From the NCBI GenBank assembly GCA_902590535.1, contig CACIXF010000002.1, forward strand, positions 4,105 to 68,104: a stretch of 64,000 nt of DNA, given 5' to 3'. A program made the translations under genes and the position numbers. Below the pieces are notes generated by a model. The model did no database searches. It saw only the letters and a list, made by a program, of their open reading frames with translations, and was not told where the DNA came from. Below, piece after piece: positions 20,918-53,285 of this stretch. The stretch comes from an uncultured Pelagibacteraceae bacterium. Its GTDB lineage: Bacteria; Pseudomonadota; Alphaproteobacteria; Pelagibacterales; Pelagibacteraceae. Position 1 is the stretch's first letter, and the number at the start of each line of letters is the position of its first letter.

Positions 20918-22223
20918 ATGCAAAAAGAAGTAAAAAAATCCTGGGCTCTTTTTATAGGTATTGGAACAATGATGATAGCTCATGGATTACAAATGCAGAT
21001 AATGGGTATTCGTTCTGTACTTGAGGACTTTAGTGTTTTTACAACTGGTATCTTTATGTCTGGATATTATGTTGGTTATTTTGTGGGTTCAAGAACTACT
21101 CCTAATTTTGTTTCAAAAGTTGGTCATATAAGAGTATTTGCTGCGTTTGCTTCTCTTGCATCTTTAAGTGCATTAATCGCTGTTGTTTATGTAAATCCAT
21201 TTATGTGGACAATTAGTAGATTTATAACAGGTATAAGTTTAGTTAGTTGTTATGTGGTTACTGAAAGCTGGTTAAATGATAGAGCAACTAATAAAAATAG
21301 AGGACAACTATTGTCTGCTTATATGATGGTTATCTATTTTGGATTAGCTATAGGTATGTTGCTACTTAATATTAGTAAACCAGATGCTTATGAACCATTT
21401 ATTTTAGTTTCTATTTTGCTATCTGTTGCTCTTGTTCCTATTTTATTAACTAAAAGACCTGCACCTAAATTTAAAAAAAATAGAGACAATAAGCATTAAA
21501 GAATTATATAAAATTTCACCACTAGGTTCATTGAGTTCATTCTTTACTGGTATTATTCATGCAGCATTCTTCTCTTTAATATCTGTTTATGCAACACTTG
21601 CAAAATTTACTTTAGTTGAAACATCGATACTTTTATTTATTGCAACAATTGCAGGAGTGATTGGTCAAGGGCCAATAGGTTATTTTTCAGATACATTTGA
21701 TAGAAGAAAAGTCATCGTAATTACAACATTTGGAAGTTCTTTTTTAGCATTTATTTCAATTCTAACTTCAAATGATCCAATCCAAAATATTTATTACATG
21801 GATGAATTTTCTTTTAGAAAAATTATATTTTTTATTGCTGTAGGATTATATTCAAGTTTATGTCTTCCTTTGTTTTCACTTAACCTTGCTCACACAAATG
21901 ACTTTGTTCCTAAATCAAAATTCGTAGCGGCTGGAGGTGGTTTGCAGTTTATCTTTGGTGTAGGCGCAATTAGTGGTCCTATTTTATGTTCTGTATTTAT
22001 GGAATGGTTTGGTTTAAATGGTTTATTTATTTTTTTAATTATTGCTCATGCGATAATTGGTGGATTTGGTTTATATAGGATGAAAGTTAGAAACACTGTT
22101 GAAAACCCAGACTCAACTTTTACACCTGTACCAGCAACAATTACACCTGCTGGACTAGAACTTGACCCAGACACACCTGCAACACTTGATGAAAATCCAG
22201 TTAATGAAACTGTAAAAACTTAA
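20918..22223 (+). CDS. MFS transporter (YcaD-like), +1 frameshift in an A8 run
   Basis: ORFs 20918..21499 and 21531..22223 join on removing one A at 21473-21480. VGHIRVFAAFAS, ESWLN...NRGQLLSAY, SD.FDRR. Confidence 0.82.
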
Positions 22224-23541: not shown

Positions 23542-24552
23542 ATGAAAAAAACACTTAACCTTGGAGTAATCGGAATAGATCATGGTCATATTTTCGATAT
23601 GTTAGATGAAATGCTTAAAGAAGGTTGTAGTTGTAATTCTTTTTGGACAGATGGGGATCCTTTAACTCTTCAAGAATTTAATAAAAAATATCCAAATATA
23701 AAAAGAAAAGAAAATAAAGAGGAAATATTAAATGACTCATCTATTGATATGATTTTAATTTCTTCAATCCCTGTAGATAGAGCTGGTCATTCAATAGATG
23801 CATTAAAAGCTGGGAAAGATGTTATGGTAGATAAACCAGGCTGTACTACCTTAGATCAATTAAATAATTTGAAAAATACTGTTAAAGAAACTGGAAAGAT
23901 CTGGTCTGTAAATTTTTCTGAAAGATTTCACGTTGCTGCAGTTACTAAAGCAGAAGAATTAGTAAATGAAGGCAAAATAGGAAAAGTAAAACAAACTATT
24001 GGTACAGGTCCCCATAGACAGGGTAATTACGAAAGACCTGATTGGTTTTATAATCGTCAAAGTTATGGAGGAATTATTACTGATATTGGTTCTCACCAAA
24101 TTCATCAATTTTTAGTTTTTACAAACTCAAATCAGGCAAAAATCAACCATGCATTAGTAGAAAACACCACAAAGAAAGATATGCCTGGTTTTCAAGATTT
24201 TGGTGAAGTGAACCTTACTGGTAATGGCGGGCATGGTTATATTCGCCTGGATTGGTTTACTCCAGACGCTCTTCCAACCTGGGGAGATGGAAGATTATTA
24301 ATCCTTGGAGACAAAGGTTTTATTGAAATAAGAAAATATACAGACTTAGCAAAATCAGAAAAAGGTAATCATTTATTTTTAGCAAATAATGATGAGGTGA
24401 AGCATATTGATTGTTCTAATGTTAAACTACCCTACTTTAGTAATTTAATTACTGATGTTTTAAACAGAACAGAAACTGCATGTCCTCAAGAAATTACTTA
24501 CCTTTCAATGGAACTTGCTATTAAAGCTCAAGAGCAAGCTGAAAAAAAATGA
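23542..24552 (+). CDS. Gfo/Idh/MocA family oxidoreductase
   Basis: AGKDVMVDKPG, GGIITDIGSHQ, LPTWGDGR. Confidence 0.85.
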   Translation: MKKTLNLGVIGIDHGHIFDMLDEMLKEGCSCNSFWTDGDPLTLQEFNKKYPNIKRKENKEEILNDSSIDMILISSIPVDRAGHSIDALKAGKDVMVDKPGCTTLDQLNNLKNTVKETGKIWSVNFSERFHVAAVTKAEELVNEGKIGKVKQTIGTGPHRQGNYERPDWFYNRQSYGGIITDIGSHQIHQFLVFTNSNQAKINHALVENTTKKDMPGFQDFGEVNLTGNGGHGYIRLDWFTPDALPTWGDGRLLILGDKGFIEIRKYTDLAKSEKGNHLFLANNDEVKHIDCSNVKLPYFSNLITDVLNRTETACPQEITYLSMELAIKAQEQAEKK

Positions 24553-25628
24553 AAAAATATCAAGTTGCAATAATTGGTACCAATATAGGGGCAAAACATT
24601 TTGAAGATTTTCAAAAAGTATCTGAGAGGTTTAATGTTCACACATTATGTGGTTTAACTCGGAAAGCTATTGATAAAATATTACAATCAAATAACGAGAC
24701 AAAAGTTTCTCTAAATTTTGACGATGTATTAAAAGTTAAAGAAATTGATATCATTGATATTTGTCTCCCACCCCATTTACATTTCTCTGCTTGTAAAAAA
24801 GCTATGGAAGCTGGTAAGCATGTGATTTGTGAAAAACCATTAGTTTCAAGTCTTAAAGAAGTAGACGAATTAGAAAAGATCAGTAAAGCAACTGGTAAGA
24901 TTATTTTCCCAGTATTTCAATATCGATATGGTCTAGGATTTTCAAAATTAAAATCATTAATCAAATCTGGTTTAGCAGGGAACCCTTTGGTTTCTTCTTT
25001 AGAAACTCATTGGAATAGAGGTAAAGATTATTATTCAAAACCTTGGAGAGGAACTTGGGAAGGTGAACAAGGTGGTGCAATATTAAGTCATTCAATCCAT
25101 ATTCATGATTTAGTGAGTATGATCTTGGGACCAGTTTCAAATGTTTTTGCAAAATTAACAACTAGAGTAAATAATATTGAGGTTGAGGATTGTGCTGCTC
25201 TTTCTATTGAAATGGAAAACGGCACATTGGTTACAAGCTCAATCACACTTGGAGCTGCAAATGATACTAGTAGACTTCGATTTTGTTTTGAAGGGTTAAC
25301 AGCTGAGTCTGGTGCATCACCAGATAAACCATATAGTCCAGCTGATGATAAATGGGACTTTTTACCAAGAGCTCCTATAACTCAAGCTCAAATAGATGAA
25401 GTACTATCAAAAGTAAAAGAACCAAAATCATGGTATGCAGGTATGTTTGAAGAAATTGCTAATAAACTAGATGGATCTCCTAGTGATGAGGTAACTTTAT
25501 CAGATGCTAGAAAATCTCTAGAATTTGTAACCGCTGTGTATGATTCTTCTAGACAAAATAAGAGCATTAAACTTCCGATCAATAAAGATAATCCTTTATA
25601 TAATTCTTGGTTACCTTTAAATAATTAA
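24549..25628 (+). CDS. Gfo/Idh/MocA family oxidoreductase
   Basis: AGKHVICEKPL, WRGTW..EQGG, VEDCA; overlaps the previous gene by ATGA. Confidence 0.87.
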   Translation: MKKYQVAIIGTNIGAKHFEDFQKVSERFNVHTLCGLTRKAIDKILQSNNETKVSLNFDDVLKVKEIDIIDICLPPHLHFSACKKAMEAGKHVICEKPLVSSLKEVDELEKISKATGKIIFPVFQYRYGLGFSKLKSLIKSGLAGNPLVSSLETHWNRGKDYYSKPWRGTWEGEQGGAILSHSIHIHDLVSMILGPVSNVFAKLTTRVNNIEVEDCAALSIEMENGTLVTSSITLGAANDTSRLRFCFEGLTAESGASPDKPYSPADDKWDFLPRAPITQAQIDEVLSKVKEPKSWYAGMFEEIANKLDGSPSDEVTLSDARKSLEFVTAVYDSSRQNKSIKLPINKDNPLYNSWLPLNN

Positions 25629-25630
25629 AC

Positions 25631-26098
25631 ATGGCAGATTCAAATAAAGCACCAGACGATTTTTTTGATAATTGGAATAAAATCCAATCAATGTCGTATA
25701 AAAACGTCATTGAACTACTTGTAAAGAGAAGTAGCGAAAAAAAGATATTAGCTTTAATCCAATTTGAATTAGATCAATTTTCAGAAAATGTTCAAAAGGA
25801 TTTAGCTATTTCTGAAACAAGTTCTTTCTACCAAGAAATATCTAATCTTTTTAGAGATTCAAACTGGTGGTCAACTGCTACAGTAACAGACGCTTGTAAA
25901 TATTATTTAAACTGTGCGAGAAATAATATTTCTTATTTTGAAAACTATGTAGAGGCAGATAGTGGTTTGTCTCAAAATCAAAAAAATGAGATATTTGCCT
26001 TATATCAATTATGTACTTTATTTGTTTCTTGGAATGCTATTAAAGACAAACAGATCAGAGAAATTATAGATATTAGAAAAAGTTTATTTTTTAGATAA
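25631..26098 (+). CDS. Hypothetical protein (155 aa)
   Basis: ATG-started ORF 2 nt after the preceding stop; no recognised motif. Confidence 0.6.
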   Translation: MADSNKAPDDFFDNWNKIQSMSYKNVIELLVKRSSEKKILALIQFELDQFSENVQKDLAISETSSFYQEISNLFRDSNWWSTATVTDACKYYLNCARNNISYFENYVEADSGLSQNQKNEIFALYQLCTLFVSWNAIKDKQIREIIDIRKSLFFR

Positions 26099-26107
26099 AA
26101 CTAAACT

Positions 26108-26170
26108 GTATGAACAAAGAAAACGCAAGTAAACTCTGGAAAATTATTCAGGAAGCTGGCGATTATTTGG
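26108..26170 (+). repeat. 63-bp direct repeat, left copy (attL-like)
   Basis: gtatgaacaaagaaaacgcaagtaaactctggaaaattattcaggaagctggcgattatttgg is identical to 28596-28658. Confidence 0.95.
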
Positions 26171-26178
26171 GGGATTAG
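26110..26178 (+). pseudogene. Truncated 5' copy of the 75-aa gene at 28598 (MNKENASKLWKIIQEAGDYLGD*)
   Basis: The first 20 codons are identical to ORF 28598..28825; the sequence then diverges and reaches TAG at 26176-26178. Confidence 0.85.
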
Positions 26179-26180
26179 AG

Positions 26181-26208
26181 GGACAACATAATCCACATTA
26201 AGCTACAC
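26181..26208 (-). other. dif-like XerC/XerD site candidate
   Basis: Minus strand GTGTAGCTTAA-TGTGGA-TTATGTTGTCC versus E. coli dif GGTGCGCATAA-TGTATA-TTATGTTAAAT: same 11-6-11 layout, TAA-N6-TTATGTT core, 17/28 identical. Confidence 0.45.
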
Positions 26209-26284
26209 TATTCTACAGTACTTATACGAATTTAAAAAGTTAGCTTAAAATAAATCGCCTAAAGACTCATCAATTTAATTAAAA

Positions 26285-26317
26285 AACTCGATGTCAAACT
26301 CGAAACAAAAGAGATAA
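26285..26317 (+). repeat. Paired AACTCGA motif (integrase arm-site-like), left
   Basis: aactcgatgtcaaactcgaaacaaaagagataa; 26298-26317 matches 28560-28579 at 19/20. Confidence 0.7.
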
Positions 26318-26377
26318 TTCAAACAACATATTAATAAGAATTAGACACCCATATTGGAGTAATGTTACAATTTTTAT

Positions 26378-28504
26378 ATGAAAAATATTATAGCCATATG
26401 CTTAACAACATTAATTCTTTTAAGCCAGGCTAATGGAAATATTGTAGATCAATTAACTGAACTAAATAACTTGTATAAATCTGGTGCAATCAATGAAGAT
26501 GAATTTAGTAAAGCAAAAAATATTTTATTAAAATCAGAAGATGATGAAAAATCAGATATTGAAGAAAAAATAACGACACAAAAAAATATAGAAAAAGAGG
26601 AAAAAGAAACTGCACAATTAATCGAAATTAAAACAACCAATAAAAATTTAAAAAGAGAAGATTTAAGTAAAACATTTGTTTCTAAAGAAGAATTAGAAGA
26701 AATTGGTCAATATAAAGAATTAAAAGAATACCCTGAAGGATTATTTAAAAATCCAAATTTTTCTGAAAGTATGCTTGCAAAAAAATCAGCTGAAGAAATG
26801 TATAAAACATTTGTTCAACACAAAAATTTAAATGAAAAATATCCTGAAAACATGATGAGAGCTATGGCTTACTTTGAAGTATTTTATAATCACAAACTTA
26901 AGGAAGAAAAAAAAGCAATTGAGGATTATCAAAATAACTACCCTAACGTCAAAAAGAGCAGCAAAAAAGCTATACAATCACTTTATTCATTATCTCAAGC
27001 TAAAGAGTCTATGAGAAAATCAATAGGACTTACATCCAATGATAATTTAGAGGATGCATTAACAGGCTATATGCACATGTATGATTTTATGTCCCAAGGT
27101 ACCAAAAGCCAGAACAAACTTACAAGTGAAGAAAAAAAAATAAAAAAAGAATCTACAAAATTTAAATCATCTTATGGGACTTTTAAAAAAAATTTAGAAT
27201 TAAAATTAGAACAAAGGATCAGCCAAAAAGAATTTGAAAAAGAGTTTAAGAAAACTTCTAAAAAAGTTGAAAAGTCTTTAAAGAAAATTATCAAAATTAA
27301 TCCTGATAAATATAGTGTTTATGAAAATATTAGTGAAATTTTTACAAAATCTCTAAATATAATAGATAATTGCAATAAAAGTTGTGAAGACAAAGACTTC
27401 ATAACTGCAATAGATTCTGTTGATTTTTCAAATGCAATTTTAAAAGATGTTGAGAAAAATATTATTAAAAAAAAATTTGAGAATGATTTAAGTAAAATTA
27501 ATATTGAAAATGTTTCAGATAACACAAAAAAAACATTAACATTAGCCTCATTAAGTTCGAAAAAACAAAATAATCAAAATATTCTTAATTTACAAAAGCA
27601 AGCTCTTAATTTAGCAAATAATGATTTTGCTGTAGATGAAATTCTAGAAAATATTGAGAAAGATGGTTATGAATTTACTCCACTAAAAATAGCCTATCAA
27701 AATTTAGAAGAAATGGAAAATTGGGAGGTAAAAGATTGGGCTAACTCTTGGAAGGGAGACATGCCCGTTGAAAATTTTAAAGACAATTCTGGAAATTTAA
27801 TTGAACTAACTAGTGAGAATATTAATGATTTAAAAGCTCAGTTAGCAAGAAATGAATTTCAAAATTTAATCAATTTTAATGAGACAGCTTTAAGTAATGA
27901 TTTAAATCAAAATCTAATTGATATTGCAAAATCTGTTCAAGAAAATCCGTCGTTCAATTTAGAAAATTGGCTCAATCAAGATTTTTCAATTACTTTGGAT
28001 AATTATACAAAAATTGCTTCTGAAAGTATTATATCTGAATTTGGAGACTCTTTAGATCAGGCAACTATTAATGATATCAGAGCAAATGCAAATTTTGAGA
28101 ATTTAACTAAATTAGTTAATGCTGAATATGGTAGCAATTTAACTCCAGAAGAATATGCAAAACATTGGGAGAGTGCAAAATTTACATATAATCAACCAGG
28201 TCAATGTGGAGACCTACAAGGTTCATGTCCATCTTCTTCATGGGGCGATGTAACAAGAGGAGTAGATTTATTAAATCAGGTTGGATCATTTGAAGCGGCA
28301 TCAATAGCTAAAGATCTTGGTACAAATTTGCAAACAGTAGCTGACTCGATTGCTTTAGCTGCGACCGTAGGTGTTTCAACTGATCTTGAAGCTGCTGCAA
28401 GTGGATTAGGATACAGCAGCTTTGCTGATGCGGTTTCTGCTTATAACGAACAATACGGTACCAATTATTCAGTAGATGAAGCTAAAGAAGCTCTTGGGCA
28501 ATAG
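26378..28504 (+). CDS. Secreted SHOCT-domain hypothetical protein (708 aa)
   Basis: Signal peptide MKNIIAICLTTLILLSQANG; SHOCT-like LTELNNLYKSGAINEDEFSKAKNILL; charged helical middle; Ala/Gly/Ser-rich C-terminus. Confidence 0.75.
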   Translation: MKNIIAICLTTLILLSQANGNIVDQLTELNNLYKSGAINEDEFSKAKNILLKSEDDEKSDIEEKITTQKNIEKEEKETAQLIEIKTTNKNLKREDLSKTFVSKEELEEIGQYKELKEYPEGLFKNPNFSESMLAKKSAEEMYKTFVQHKNLNEKYPENMMRAMAYFEVFYNHKLKEEKKAIEDYQNNYPNVKKSSKKAIQSLYSLSQAKESMRKSIGLTSNDNLEDALTGYMHMYDFMSQGTKSQNKLTSEEKKIKKESTKFKSSYGTFKKNLELKLEQRISQKEFEKEFKKTSKKVEKSLKKIIKINPDKYSVYENISEIFTKSLNIIDNCNKSCEDKDFITAIDSVDFSNAILKDVEKNIIKKKFENDLSKINIENVSDNTKKTLTLASLSSKKQNNQNILNLQKQALNLANNDFAVDEILENIEKDGYEFTPLKIAYQNLEEMENWEVKDWANSWKGDMPVENFKDNSGNLIELTSENINDLKAQLARNEFQNLINFNETALSNDLNQNLIDIAKSVQENPSFNLENWLNQDFSITLDNYTKIASESIISEFGDSLDQATINDIRANANFENLTKLVNAEYGSNLTPEEYAKHWESAKFTYNQPGQCGDLQGSCPSSSWGDVTRGVDLLNQVGSFEAASIAKDLGTNLQTVADSIALAATVGVSTDLEAAASGLGYSSFADAVSAYNEQYGTNYSVDEAKEALGQ

Positions 28505-28547
28505 AATTAAAATTTAATAAAATTTATAATAAAGGATTATATATAAG

Positions 28548-28579
28548 AACTCGAAACATACTCGAAACAAAAGTGATAA
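28548..28579 (+). repeat. Paired ACTCGAAAC motif (integrase arm-site-like), right
   Basis: aactcgaaacatactcgaaacaaaagtgataa: two ACTCGAAACA copies 11 nt apart, ending 16 nt before the right 63-bp repeat. Confidence 0.7.
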
Positions 28580-28595
28580 AACATAAATTTAGATA

Positions 28596-28658
28596 GTATG
28601 AACAAAGAAAACGCAAGTAAACTCTGGAAAATTATTCAGGAAGCTGGCGATTATTTGG
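28596..28658 (+). repeat. 63-bp direct repeat, right copy (attR-like), forming the 5' end of the intact small gene
   Basis: Identical to 26108-26170. Confidence 0.95.
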
Positions 28659-53136: not shown

Positions 53137-53285
53137 GCCCCCTCTGTCTTGGTGCCTGAGAGATTTGCTCCTTCGGCGAGAATAATTCTCTTTCCAGAGT
53201 TAATATGTACGGTCCTTTTGCCTGAGAGTTTCCGGGGTGGTTGCTCCTTCGGCGCTACAAAAGTAGTCTCTCCCGTGTGTAAATT
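53137..53285 (-). ncRNA. Tandem glycine riboswitch upstream of gcvT
   Basis: The minus strand has two aptamers: GGGAGAGA...GCGCCGAAGGAGCAA...CTCTCAGGCAAAAGGACCG (about 53206-53280) and CTCTGGAAAGAG...CGCCGAAGGAGCAAATCTCTCAGGCACCAAGACAGAG (about 53138-53202). GC-rich patch about 15 nt before the gcvT ATG. Confidence 0.95.

What the first reader, a model, noticed from the sequence alone, without database searches (positions are those of the whole stretch)
26108..28658. Integrase-free single-gene cassette that inserts into, and repairs, the 5' end of a small gene
Seen: a perfect 63-bp direct repeat (26108-26170 = 28596-28658) covers the first 20 codons of a 75-aa gene. The left copy stops after 22 codons; the right copy heads the intact gene. 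Between them lie one 708-aa cargo gene, a dif-like 28-mer 10 nt inside the left end, and matching paired ACTCGA repeats inside both ends. There is no recombinase or transposase in the 64 kb. Known: tyrosine-recombinase elements duplicate their target and restore it, usually at tRNA 3' ends. Inference: a recent, non-autonomous 2488-bp unit integrated as a circle, mobilised in trans by host XerCD or a phage/island integrase, using a protein-coding 5' end as attB. This could be an undescribed cassette-exchange system for surface proteins in a streamlined genome.
Basis: partly seen in the sequence, partly recalled or inferred. Interest (0 to 1): 0.82.

Follow-up and report, generated by a model that had tools for sequence, protein, structure and literature searches.

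The report
Integrase-less hitchhiker gene cassette in SAR11
A 2.5-kb one-gene cassette sits in, and restores, the start of a small conserved gene of the ocean bacterium SAR11; it belongs to a large family of cassettes without an integrase that share end sequences with rarer integrase-carrying elements and likely borrow their enzyme, which would help explain how this stripped-down bacterium swaps accessory genes.

Summary
The 63-bp repeat, stopped left copy, intact 75-aa gene (orfX), 708-aa cargo and paired ACTCGA repeats are real. The 'dif-like' 28-mer is not dif, and no XerD was found in five complete relatives. The unit is one of a SAR11 family: 71 units in 57 relatives' loci, with unrelated cargo, tandem arrays of up to three, empty sites, a junction at gene nt 59-61 in 58 of 68, and no integrase. 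The likely helper was found: 9-21-kb satellite-like elements with a ~560-aa tyrosine integrase at the same site, one assembled as a circle with an intact attP. This cassette's right ACT-pair block matches one helper's at 34 of 35 bases. Left and right arm variants agree within cassettes (51 of 57; 27% shuffled). Cassettes carry end motifs absent from helpers (64 of 68 against 0 of 19). Near-identical cassettes recur between unrelated flanks, so they look like a self-standing hitchhiker family, not just decayed elements. Cassette circles and the route between cells were not shown. This scan noted the family before on other DNA. Verdict: new variant of a known kind (CIME / tycheposon remnant / hitcher).

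The parts
25631..26098 (+). 155-aa upstream chromosomal gene; runs straight into orfX in empty alleles
   Evidence: empty alleles in L033, L057, L097, L098, L102, L103, L108, L109, L110 with 90-96% upstream identity
26108..26170 (+). Left 63-bp copy (attL side): displaced native 5' end of orfX; reads 22 codons, then TAG at 26176-26178
   Evidence: the displaced copy stops after 22 codons in 64 of 71 units
26149..26168 (+). Likely strand-exchange region (orfX nt about 40-59); shared sequence ends at nt 59-61
   Evidence: identity run ends at nt 59-61 in 58 of 68 units; mismatches rare from nt 40 to 59; exact cut sites are inferred
26184..26223 (+).
   Evidence: autocorrelation 0.54 at lag 10 against 0.18-0.34 at other lags over 71 units; also present before helper integrase genes; function inferred
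26222..26285 (+). Cassette-only conserved left segment (TTATGCGGA-like ... AAAGACTCATCAATTT; GANTC at 26264)
   Evidence: 64 of 68 cassettes against 0 of 19 helper left ends; GANTC in 59 of 64
26286..26321 (+). Left pair of predicted arm-type integrase sites plus the GAGATAA block; homologous to the first ~15 codons of the helper integrase gene
   Evidence: 31 of 36 identical to the G200 integrase 5' end; translates KKLDVKLETKEI against helper KKLDNTLETKEI
26378..28504 (+). Cargo: 708-aa mostly helical protein with a hydrophobic N-terminus (likely signal peptide) and a SHOCT-like motif; function not determined
   Evidence: Pfam SHOCT E 7.7e-6, just under the cut-off; 348 homologues; model pLDDT 59.5, no PDB fold match; relatives in 19 of 350 other genomes
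28534..28548 (+). Cassette-only right motif (variant of GGATTTTATAGGA, 3 mismatches)
   Evidence: 49 of 66 cassette right ends against 0 of 12 helper right ends; window match
28549..28583 (+). Right pair of predicted arm-type integrase sites plus the GTGATAAAACA block
   Evidence: 34 of 35 identical to the right end of the autonomous element of G200
28596..28658 (+). Right 63-bp copy (attR side): element-carried replacement head of orfX
   Evidence: the same position in the attP of L159
28598..28825 (+). orfX, restored 75-aa target gene; three-helix protein with a weak resemblance to the phage ORF6C domain
   Evidence: matches in 258 of 401 genus genomes; model pLDDT 89.8; ORF6C leads only: atlas 0.90, BFVD E 0.3-2

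Best explanation
The 2,488-bp unit is an integrase-less member of a SAR11 cassette family that shares its end sequences with rarer integrase-carrying, satellite-like elements and is likely integrated and excised by their arm-binding tyrosine integrase acting in trans. Shown: a fixed junction at orfX nt 59-61, restoration of orfX by an element-carried head, tandem build-up, empty alleles, helpers at the same site with attP-form assemblies, and arm variants matched at both ends and to helpers. Inferred: when a helper of matching arm type visits the cell, its integrase binds the ACT pairs, a small excisionase binds the 10-bp repeats, and the cassette is released as a circle (arm - linker - orfX head - 10-bp repeats - arm). 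The circle would re-integrate near orfX nt 40-59, pushing older units upstream. Transfer between cells is inferred to occur in phage particles or vesicles, alone or in tandem with the helper.
For: Junction at nt 59-61 in 58 of 68 units. 71 units in 57 of 120 loci, arrays of up to 3, and no hit to an HMM of 120 integrase homologues in any unit. Helper: 559-aa protein with Arm-DNA-bind_3 (E 1.2e-4) and Phage_integrase (E 4e-4) matches and phrog_1 integrase E 6e-20, starting just after the displaced head in G200, with a primase/helicase at the far end before restored orfX. IMG/VR contig L159 (9,070 bp, 29-bp terminal repeat) holds the complete attP. Window right arm 34 of 35 identical to G200's. 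Arm hexamer the same at both ends in 51 of 57 clusters against 27% in 10,000 shuffles. In 5 of 6 full-length pairs, cassettes 95.5-99.8% identical end to end have no similarity in 1 kb upstream and only 72-88% downstream. Five complete genomes with cassette ends lack the integrase (the family rang in G200 and G478).
Against: No circle junction of this or any integrase-less cassette was seen; only contigs could be laid, and these break at the repeat. attP-like junctions also arise in tandem arrays (L189, L132), so they do not all prove circles. Integrase Pfam scores are below the curated cut-offs, the HxxR histidine is a lysine (my reading), and no solved relative was found. Only 12 of 56 cassette arm peptides had an exact counterpart among the 120 closest integrases; that set is biased to the G200 type, and more arm variants appear. 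Left and right arms mismatch in 6 of 57 clusters. One pair (L032/L082) shares homologous flanks and could have moved by homologous recombination. Kin are not independent, so the shuffle test overstates. IMG/VR scans for three cassette motifs found nothing. G000 is 78% complete, so a helper there is not excluded.
Confidence: 0.75

Rival explanations
1. Decayed-element (classic CIME) model: each cassette is a former autonomous element that lost its integrase and replication genes in place, and afterwards moves only in cis with a neighbouring helper or by homologous recombination.
For: The left arm block is a relic of the integrase's first codons. A few units have helper-type or truncated left ends (L052, L058 unit 1, L065 unit 2). 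Cassette-helper tandems exist (G200, L189). CIMEs and accretion are described (PMC5704250, passages).
Against: Independent decay does not predict motifs shared by 64 of 68 left ends and 49 of 66 right ends yet absent from 19 and 12 helper ends. No integrase remnant was found by HMM in 71 units. The same cassette sits at different array positions and at a second site (L070, L073, L132).
Confidence: 0.15
2. Homologous recombination spreads whole alleles of this hotspot, and the att sites are old scars no longer used.
For: SAR11 is highly recombinogenic (recalled). Helpers are rare: 3 close integrases in 401 genomes, one of them broken. L032/L082 share flanks at 92-97%.
Against: Five of six full-length pairs have unrelated upstream flanks and poorly matching downstream flanks while the cassette is 95.5-99.8% identical from att to att. 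Arms remain matched left to right.
Confidence: 0.06
3. A host recombinase (XerCD at a dif-like site, or the single core tyrosine recombinase of SAR11) integrates the cassette.
For: A 28-mer with TAA-N6-TTA symmetry lies inside the left end. All five complete genomes tested hold a core ~317-aa tyrosine recombinase.
Against: No XerD over the cut-off in 5 of 5 complete genomes. Two core recombinases score 62-77 bits against XerC/XerD cut-offs of about 330. TAA-N6-TTA is present in only 19 of 71 units, and the 28-mer is 10 nt from the junction and at one end only. A cognate integrase that carries the same arms exists.
Confidence: 0.04

Closest known systems
Cis-mobilizable elements (CIMEs) and tandem accretion at att sites (review PMC5704250, passages read)
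   Same: Integration genes absent, attL and attR kept, tandem accretion with integrase-carrying elements, and the target gene restored; the review notes 5'-end targets are rarer.
   Different: The helper here is a primase-bearing satellite-like element, not an ICE or IME. The cassettes have their own conserved end motifs and recur intact between unrelated flanks, which suggests a propagating family and not decay products.
Tycheposons and additive islands of Prochlorococcus (10.1101/2020.12.28.424599, passages read)
   Same: Small cargo-carrying integrative elements with integrase and primase modules; new arrivals push older ones into the island, leaving partial target copies; islands common, intact elements rare.
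   Different: Tycheposons are defined with their own integrase and target tRNA/tmRNA genes. This unit has no integrase and targets the first 20 codons of a protein-coding gene; its helper clade also uses the recA-alaS spacer.
VEIME marine phage satellites, including those of Pelagibacter (PMC9618062 and PMC11876622, passages read)
   Same: The helper elements (about 9 kb; integrase, primase, RusA-like resolvase, no capsid hit) fit this description. About 20% of VEIMEs had no identified integrase and were suggested to use others' integrases.
   Different: Those passages describe no att anatomy, orfX target or cassette family. Packaging as concatemers was not tested here, and I could not read that paper's SI PDF.
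KplE1/IntS-type recombination module (PMC2951348, passages read)
   Same: Integrase gene starts next to attL, with RDF-site repeats and arm-type sites between the core and the gene.
   Different: Here the predicted arm pair lies inside the integrase's first codons, so the arm variant changes the protein's N-terminus, and the pair survives in integrase-less cassettes.
Hitchers of intragenomic mobility: MITEs and CALIN arrays (PMC11389934, passages read)
   Same: Enzyme-less units with conserved ends that depend on a helper's recombinase in trans.
   Different: The ends are full lambda-type att arms, not inverted repeats or attC; the helper is an integrative satellite; the cassettes carry 0.75-15 kb of cargo.

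Membership tests
XerCD/dif-integrating elements (IMEX, pdif) | dif site at the crossover, with hybrids at both ends | tested here: not met
   the 28-mer lies 10 nt inside one end; 14 of 22 matches to recalled dif arms; TAA-N6-TTA in 19 of 71 units
XerCD/dif-integrating elements (IMEX, pdif) | host XerC and XerD | tested here: not met
   TIGR02225 over cut-off in 0 of 5 complete relatives; two core recombinases far below XerC/XerD cut-offs; XerC was not searched genome-wide
Lambda/P4-type tyrosine integrase att system | cognate integrase with arm-binding and catalytic domains | tested here: met
   in the helper, not the cassette: PF13356 E 1.2e-4 and PF00589 E 4e-4, both under cut-off; phrog_1 E 6e-20; invariant R374, K401, R497, H521, Y531 (my assignment)
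Lambda/P4-type tyrosine integrase att system | direct-repeat arm sites on both sides of a fixed crossover, joined in attP | tested here: met
   binding itself is inferred
Lambda/P4-type tyrosine integrase att system | demonstrated binding and recombination, and an RDF | not testable with these tools
   needs biochemistry; no RDF family hit among the small helper ORFs
CIME | no integrase or transfer genes, attL and attR retained | tested here: met
CIME | arises by decay of an ICE/IME and is mobilised in cis by it | tested here: inconclusive
   tandems with helpers exist, but cassette-only motifs argue against independent decay; no conjugation family among the ORFs scanned from the one helper examined (L159)
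Tycheposon | encodes its own integrase | tested here: not met
   none in the cassette; met by the helpers
Tycheposon | integrates at a tRNA or tmRNA gene | tested here: not met
   the target is orfX; more distant integrase relatives use the 5' ends of tRNA-Leu and tRNA-Ser
VEIME / phage satellite | packaged as concatemers in virions | not testable with these tools
   no virion long reads available; the helper was found once in IMG/VR; cassette motifs not found there
Integron gene cassette / CALIN | integron integrase (nearby or in trans) | tested here: not met
   none in the window; core recombinases 27-28 bits against a cut-off of 265 for TIGR02249
Integron gene cassette / CALIN | attC hairpin after each gene | not tested
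   not folded; the ends are direct-repeat arms and a gene head

The most novel reading that the evidence does not exclude
SAR11 has a dedicated, ocean-wide class of hitchhiker cassettes, the MITE/CALIN equivalent for integrative phage satellites. Each has its own end signature and an arm-site 'key' copied from the first codons of one helper integrase type, circularises on its own, and refills several hotspots (orfX, recA-alaS, tRNA-Leu). New exported-protein genes are captured inside cassettes by recombination through a shared MKKLLGIVVLG-coding start. Together this would be an integron-like gene pool for the most abundant marine bacterium, and it would also swap the N-terminus and promoter of a phage-regulator-like host gene.
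Probability: 0.4. Interest if true: 0.85.

Novelty: new variant of a known kind. Interest (0 to 1): 0.63.

Why it matters
A SAR11 pangenome study found no canonical mobile elements in its islands and only one integrase (PMC11796062, passages), and a 135-genome survey invokes decayed phages at tRNAs (10.64898/2026.04.03.716430, passages). Here is a named integrase, a defined attB in a protein-coding gene, an attP, and a large population of enzyme-less cassettes. About 72 of 258 genomes have extra matches to the target gene (hand count, not all verified), against 3 of 401 with a close helper integrase (a different draw). That makes 'how do flexible genes move in a streamlined genome' testable with one enzyme and about 250 bp of DNA, gives motifs to mine cassette cargo from metagenomes, and may offer a native integration tool for SAR11.

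Tried and rejected
XerCD/dif: rejected. Misassembly: unlikely. The extra tRNA-Met integrases of G180 and G420 carry no ACT-pair arms and were rejected as helpers. The left-module profile finds no second copy in G000; the weak C5 hit lies in coding-like sequence. Three IMG/VR exact-motif scans gave 0. No circle joint was seen in 4 DNA runs; the 'goes back 211-214' and 'skips 2277' joints fit other cassettes' right ends equally well and are not counted as circles. Four RNA runs with small shares gave patchy contigs and no joints, and say nothing about expression. Cargo fold search gave no match from a low-confidence model. OrfX had no PDB match, and ORF6C is a lead only. The integrase profile had no PDB relative. 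IHF and sigma-70 consensus readings of the cassette-only segment, judged by eye against recalled consensus, were unconvincing. GANTC in that segment (59 of 64) lies inside a generally conserved block, so CcrM control is only a lead. Arm label follows the arm-domain nearest neighbour in 46 of 54 integrases against 31-32 for other domains, but linkage can explain this, so it is not used as proof of co-evolution. Dropped rows: 3 false or partial head hits; 9 of 71 units without both arms parsed, then 5 merged near-duplicates; 3 units without a module start; 2 more without a right arm.
Full report
Observation. The repeat is exact for 63 bp (26108-26170 = 28596-28658) and is the longest exact repeat in the 1.02-Mb, 78%-complete assembly. 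The left copy stops after 22 codons, the right heads a 75-aa gene (orfX), and a 708-aa ORF lies between. The two ACTCGA pairs are the only ones in the genome. No recombinase or transposase family appears among the Pfam hits listed for the window's 67 ORFs. Contigs from four metagenome studies cover the cargo, one crosses the right arm without a difference, and two runs show a joint from the 155-aa gene towards orfX that skips the cassette (26099 to 28569, letters between not known). The organism is SAR11: a same-genus record is titled Candidatus Pelagibacter, as are named cargo homologues.

A hotspot, not a one-off. OrfX matched in 258 of 401 genus genomes, and about 72 of these have two to four matches (hand count). 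In 80 loci scanned, many chosen for multiple matches, 42 held extra heads, all upstream and on the same strand. In 120 loci a head profile defined 71 units in 57 loci (46 single, 8 double, 3 triple), 749-14,990 bp long, median 2,227. Identity to the intact gene ends at nt 59-61 in 58 of 68 units, at nt 55-57 in 6 and at nt 63-65 in 4. Cargo is unrelated from unit to unit, and no unit matches an integrase HMM. Nine loci show the empty allele, with the 155-aa gene next to orfX and 90-96% upstream identity to the window.

Anatomy of the ends. After each displaced head come 10-bp tandem repeats (autocorrelation 0.54 at lag 10), a conserved segment, then a pair of ACT-initial 11-12-bp direct repeats and a GAGATAAAWCA block. 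The same pair and block lie about 45 bp before the restored head. The 'dif-like' 28-mer is a chance reading of the 10-bp repeats, and five complete relatives have no XerD over the cut-off. The ACT variant differs among cassettes but agrees between the two ends of a cassette: same hexamer in 51 of 57 clusters, 27% expected, reached by none of 10,000 shuffles; kinship inflates this. The same left module occurs at the recA-alaS spacer and at a few secondary sites, and the right motif occurs before tRNA-Leu 5' fragments.

The helper. G200 carries a roughly 21-kb element at the same site: displaced head, 10-bp repeats, then a 559-aa protein whose first codons contain the ACT pair, with weak arm-binding and integrase Pfam matches and a clear PHROG integrase match; cargo; an 895-aa primase/helicase-like gene; and a restored orfX. 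Its right arm block matches the window's at 34 of 35 bases and its left at 31 of 36. The integrase matched in 10 of 401 genomes, three of them close and at orfX (one broken) and others at tRNA 5' ends or another site; 353 clusters scored E <= 1e-30. IMG/VR contig L159 (9,070 bp, 29-bp terminal repeat) has the joined attP. Of 18 metagenome loci, seven more show attP-form junctions (five orfX, two recA-alaS); tandem integration can give such junctions too, as in L189. Neither G000 nor five complete genomes with cassette ends has this integrase.

A family, not only debris. The left segment AAAGACTCATCAATTT is in 64 of 68 cassettes and 0 of 19 helper left ends. GGATTTTATAGGA is in 49 of 66 cassette right ends and 0 of 12 helper right ends. 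Of eight pairs compared, six were full length: five are 95.5-99.8% identical from att to att with no similarity in the 1 kb upstream and 72-88% downstream, and one shares its flanks. A further copy of one of these cassettes sits at a second site in G200. This points to movement of whole cassettes by site-specific recombination. Against it: no cassette circle was seen, three IMG/VR motif scans were empty, 6 of 57 clusters have mismatched arms, and only 12 of 56 arm peptides have exact counterparts among the 120 nearest integrases.

Cargo and target. The cargo has a hydrophobic N-terminus and a SHOCT-like motif and no fold match. Relatives occur in 19 of 350 other genomes: three beside orfX heads, one at a tRNA-Met repeat, one with an arm-like match only, and 14 with neither heads nor arm pairs within 1.5 kb. 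So the gene is not confined to this system. OrfX folds as three helices with weak ORF6C/Bro-associated resemblance in two searches, a lead only.

Mechanism. Shown: fixed junction, gene restoration, accretion, empty alleles, shared arms with an integrase-carrying element, attP form of the helper. Inferred: arm-type binding, RDF sites, excision of cassettes as circles by a matching helper, and transfer in particles or vesicles. Confidence 0.75; CIME decay 0.15; homologous recombination only 0.06; host recombinase 0.04.

Comparison and novelty. It works like a CIME or tycheposon remnant served by a VEIME-like satellite (passages of PMC5704250, 10.1101/2020.12.28.424599, PMC9618062 and PMC11876622). 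It fails membership of tycheposons (no integrase, non-tRNA target) and of dif elements. Seven literature searches (listings only) and term look-ups in two SAR11 genome papers showed no description of this target or cassette family. The library is open-access only, I read passages and not whole texts, and supplements were not read (the VEIME SI PDF was too large), so prior description is not excluded. Three earlier notes of this scan report the family on other DNA. Verdict: new variant of a known kind, interest 0.63.

Noticed in passing
cassette units in L032, L065, L076, L078, L082, L084, L086, L087, L177, L178 and others: Many cargo genes start with the same MKKLLGIVVLG-coding stretch (37 copies in 21 of 68 units, 188 kb, against 0 in the 1.02-Mb G000), and 10 of 66 right ends carry a stub of it before the arm pair; a possible second-level gene capture or shuffling route.
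   Followed up: partly
L127:6019-8697, L129 (three tandem units), L136, L141; helpers L181, L182, L186, L190: Second target of the same integrase clade in the recA-alaS spacer, with 26-29-bp repeats; L129 holds three cassettes of pilin-like genes.
   Followed up: partly
right ends of helpers L069, L159, L169, L182, L184-L186, L188, L191, L192, L195: A TTATCCACA/TTTTCCACA box (DnaA-box-like, consensus recalled) and 1-3 GANTC sites lie within 110 nt of the right arm in all 11; a possible replication origin under methylation control. GANTC is about half as frequent as expected in G000.
   Followed up: partly
L159:5597, L169, L184, L185, L069:18360: Helpers carry divergent orfX heads (MSPEKSQKLW, MNEDNRRKLW, MSPENSRKLW), so integration swaps the N-terminus and upstream signals of OrfX.
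   Followed up: no
L119:1126-2082, L123:1459-2412: Complete relatives hold one core ~317-aa tyrosine recombinase far below XerC/XerD cut-offs, next to sugar-nucleotide (surface polysaccharide) genes; how SAR11 resolves chromosome dimers is open.
   Followed up: partly
L033:7431-10150 and L057; window 23542-26098: The three genes just upstream of the cassette in the window (two Gfo/Idh/MocA oxidoreductases and the 155-aa gene) are preceded in two relatives by a decayed orfX head, so they may be an old, domesticated unit of the same hotspot.
   Followed up: partly
L130:14165-14321; L131:12015; L132:8185; L134:12158: A cargo-less unit (module, arm pair, head) and cassettes at secondary sites with short core similarity.
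   Followed up: no
G000:C2:140925-142582 (outside the window): A 47-bp tRNA-Met fragment repeat 1,611 bp from the tRNA: a second small cassette with different end sequences.
   Followed up: no
window 20918-22223 and 965-2036: The MFS transporter gene is split into 193- and 230-aa ORFs (one 430-453-aa ORF in relatives), and an LptF/G-type gene into 247- and 135-aa ORFs; frameshifts or assembly errors.
   Followed up: no
window about 53210-53257 and contig C12: A 48-bp exact repeat upstream of the glycine cleavage genes that looks like a tandem glycine riboswitch (recalled identification).
   Followed up: no
L058 unit 1 (14,990 bp): An apparent complete C-P lyase (phosphonate) operon is carried as a cassette at the orfX site, with a helper-type left end.
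   Followed up: no
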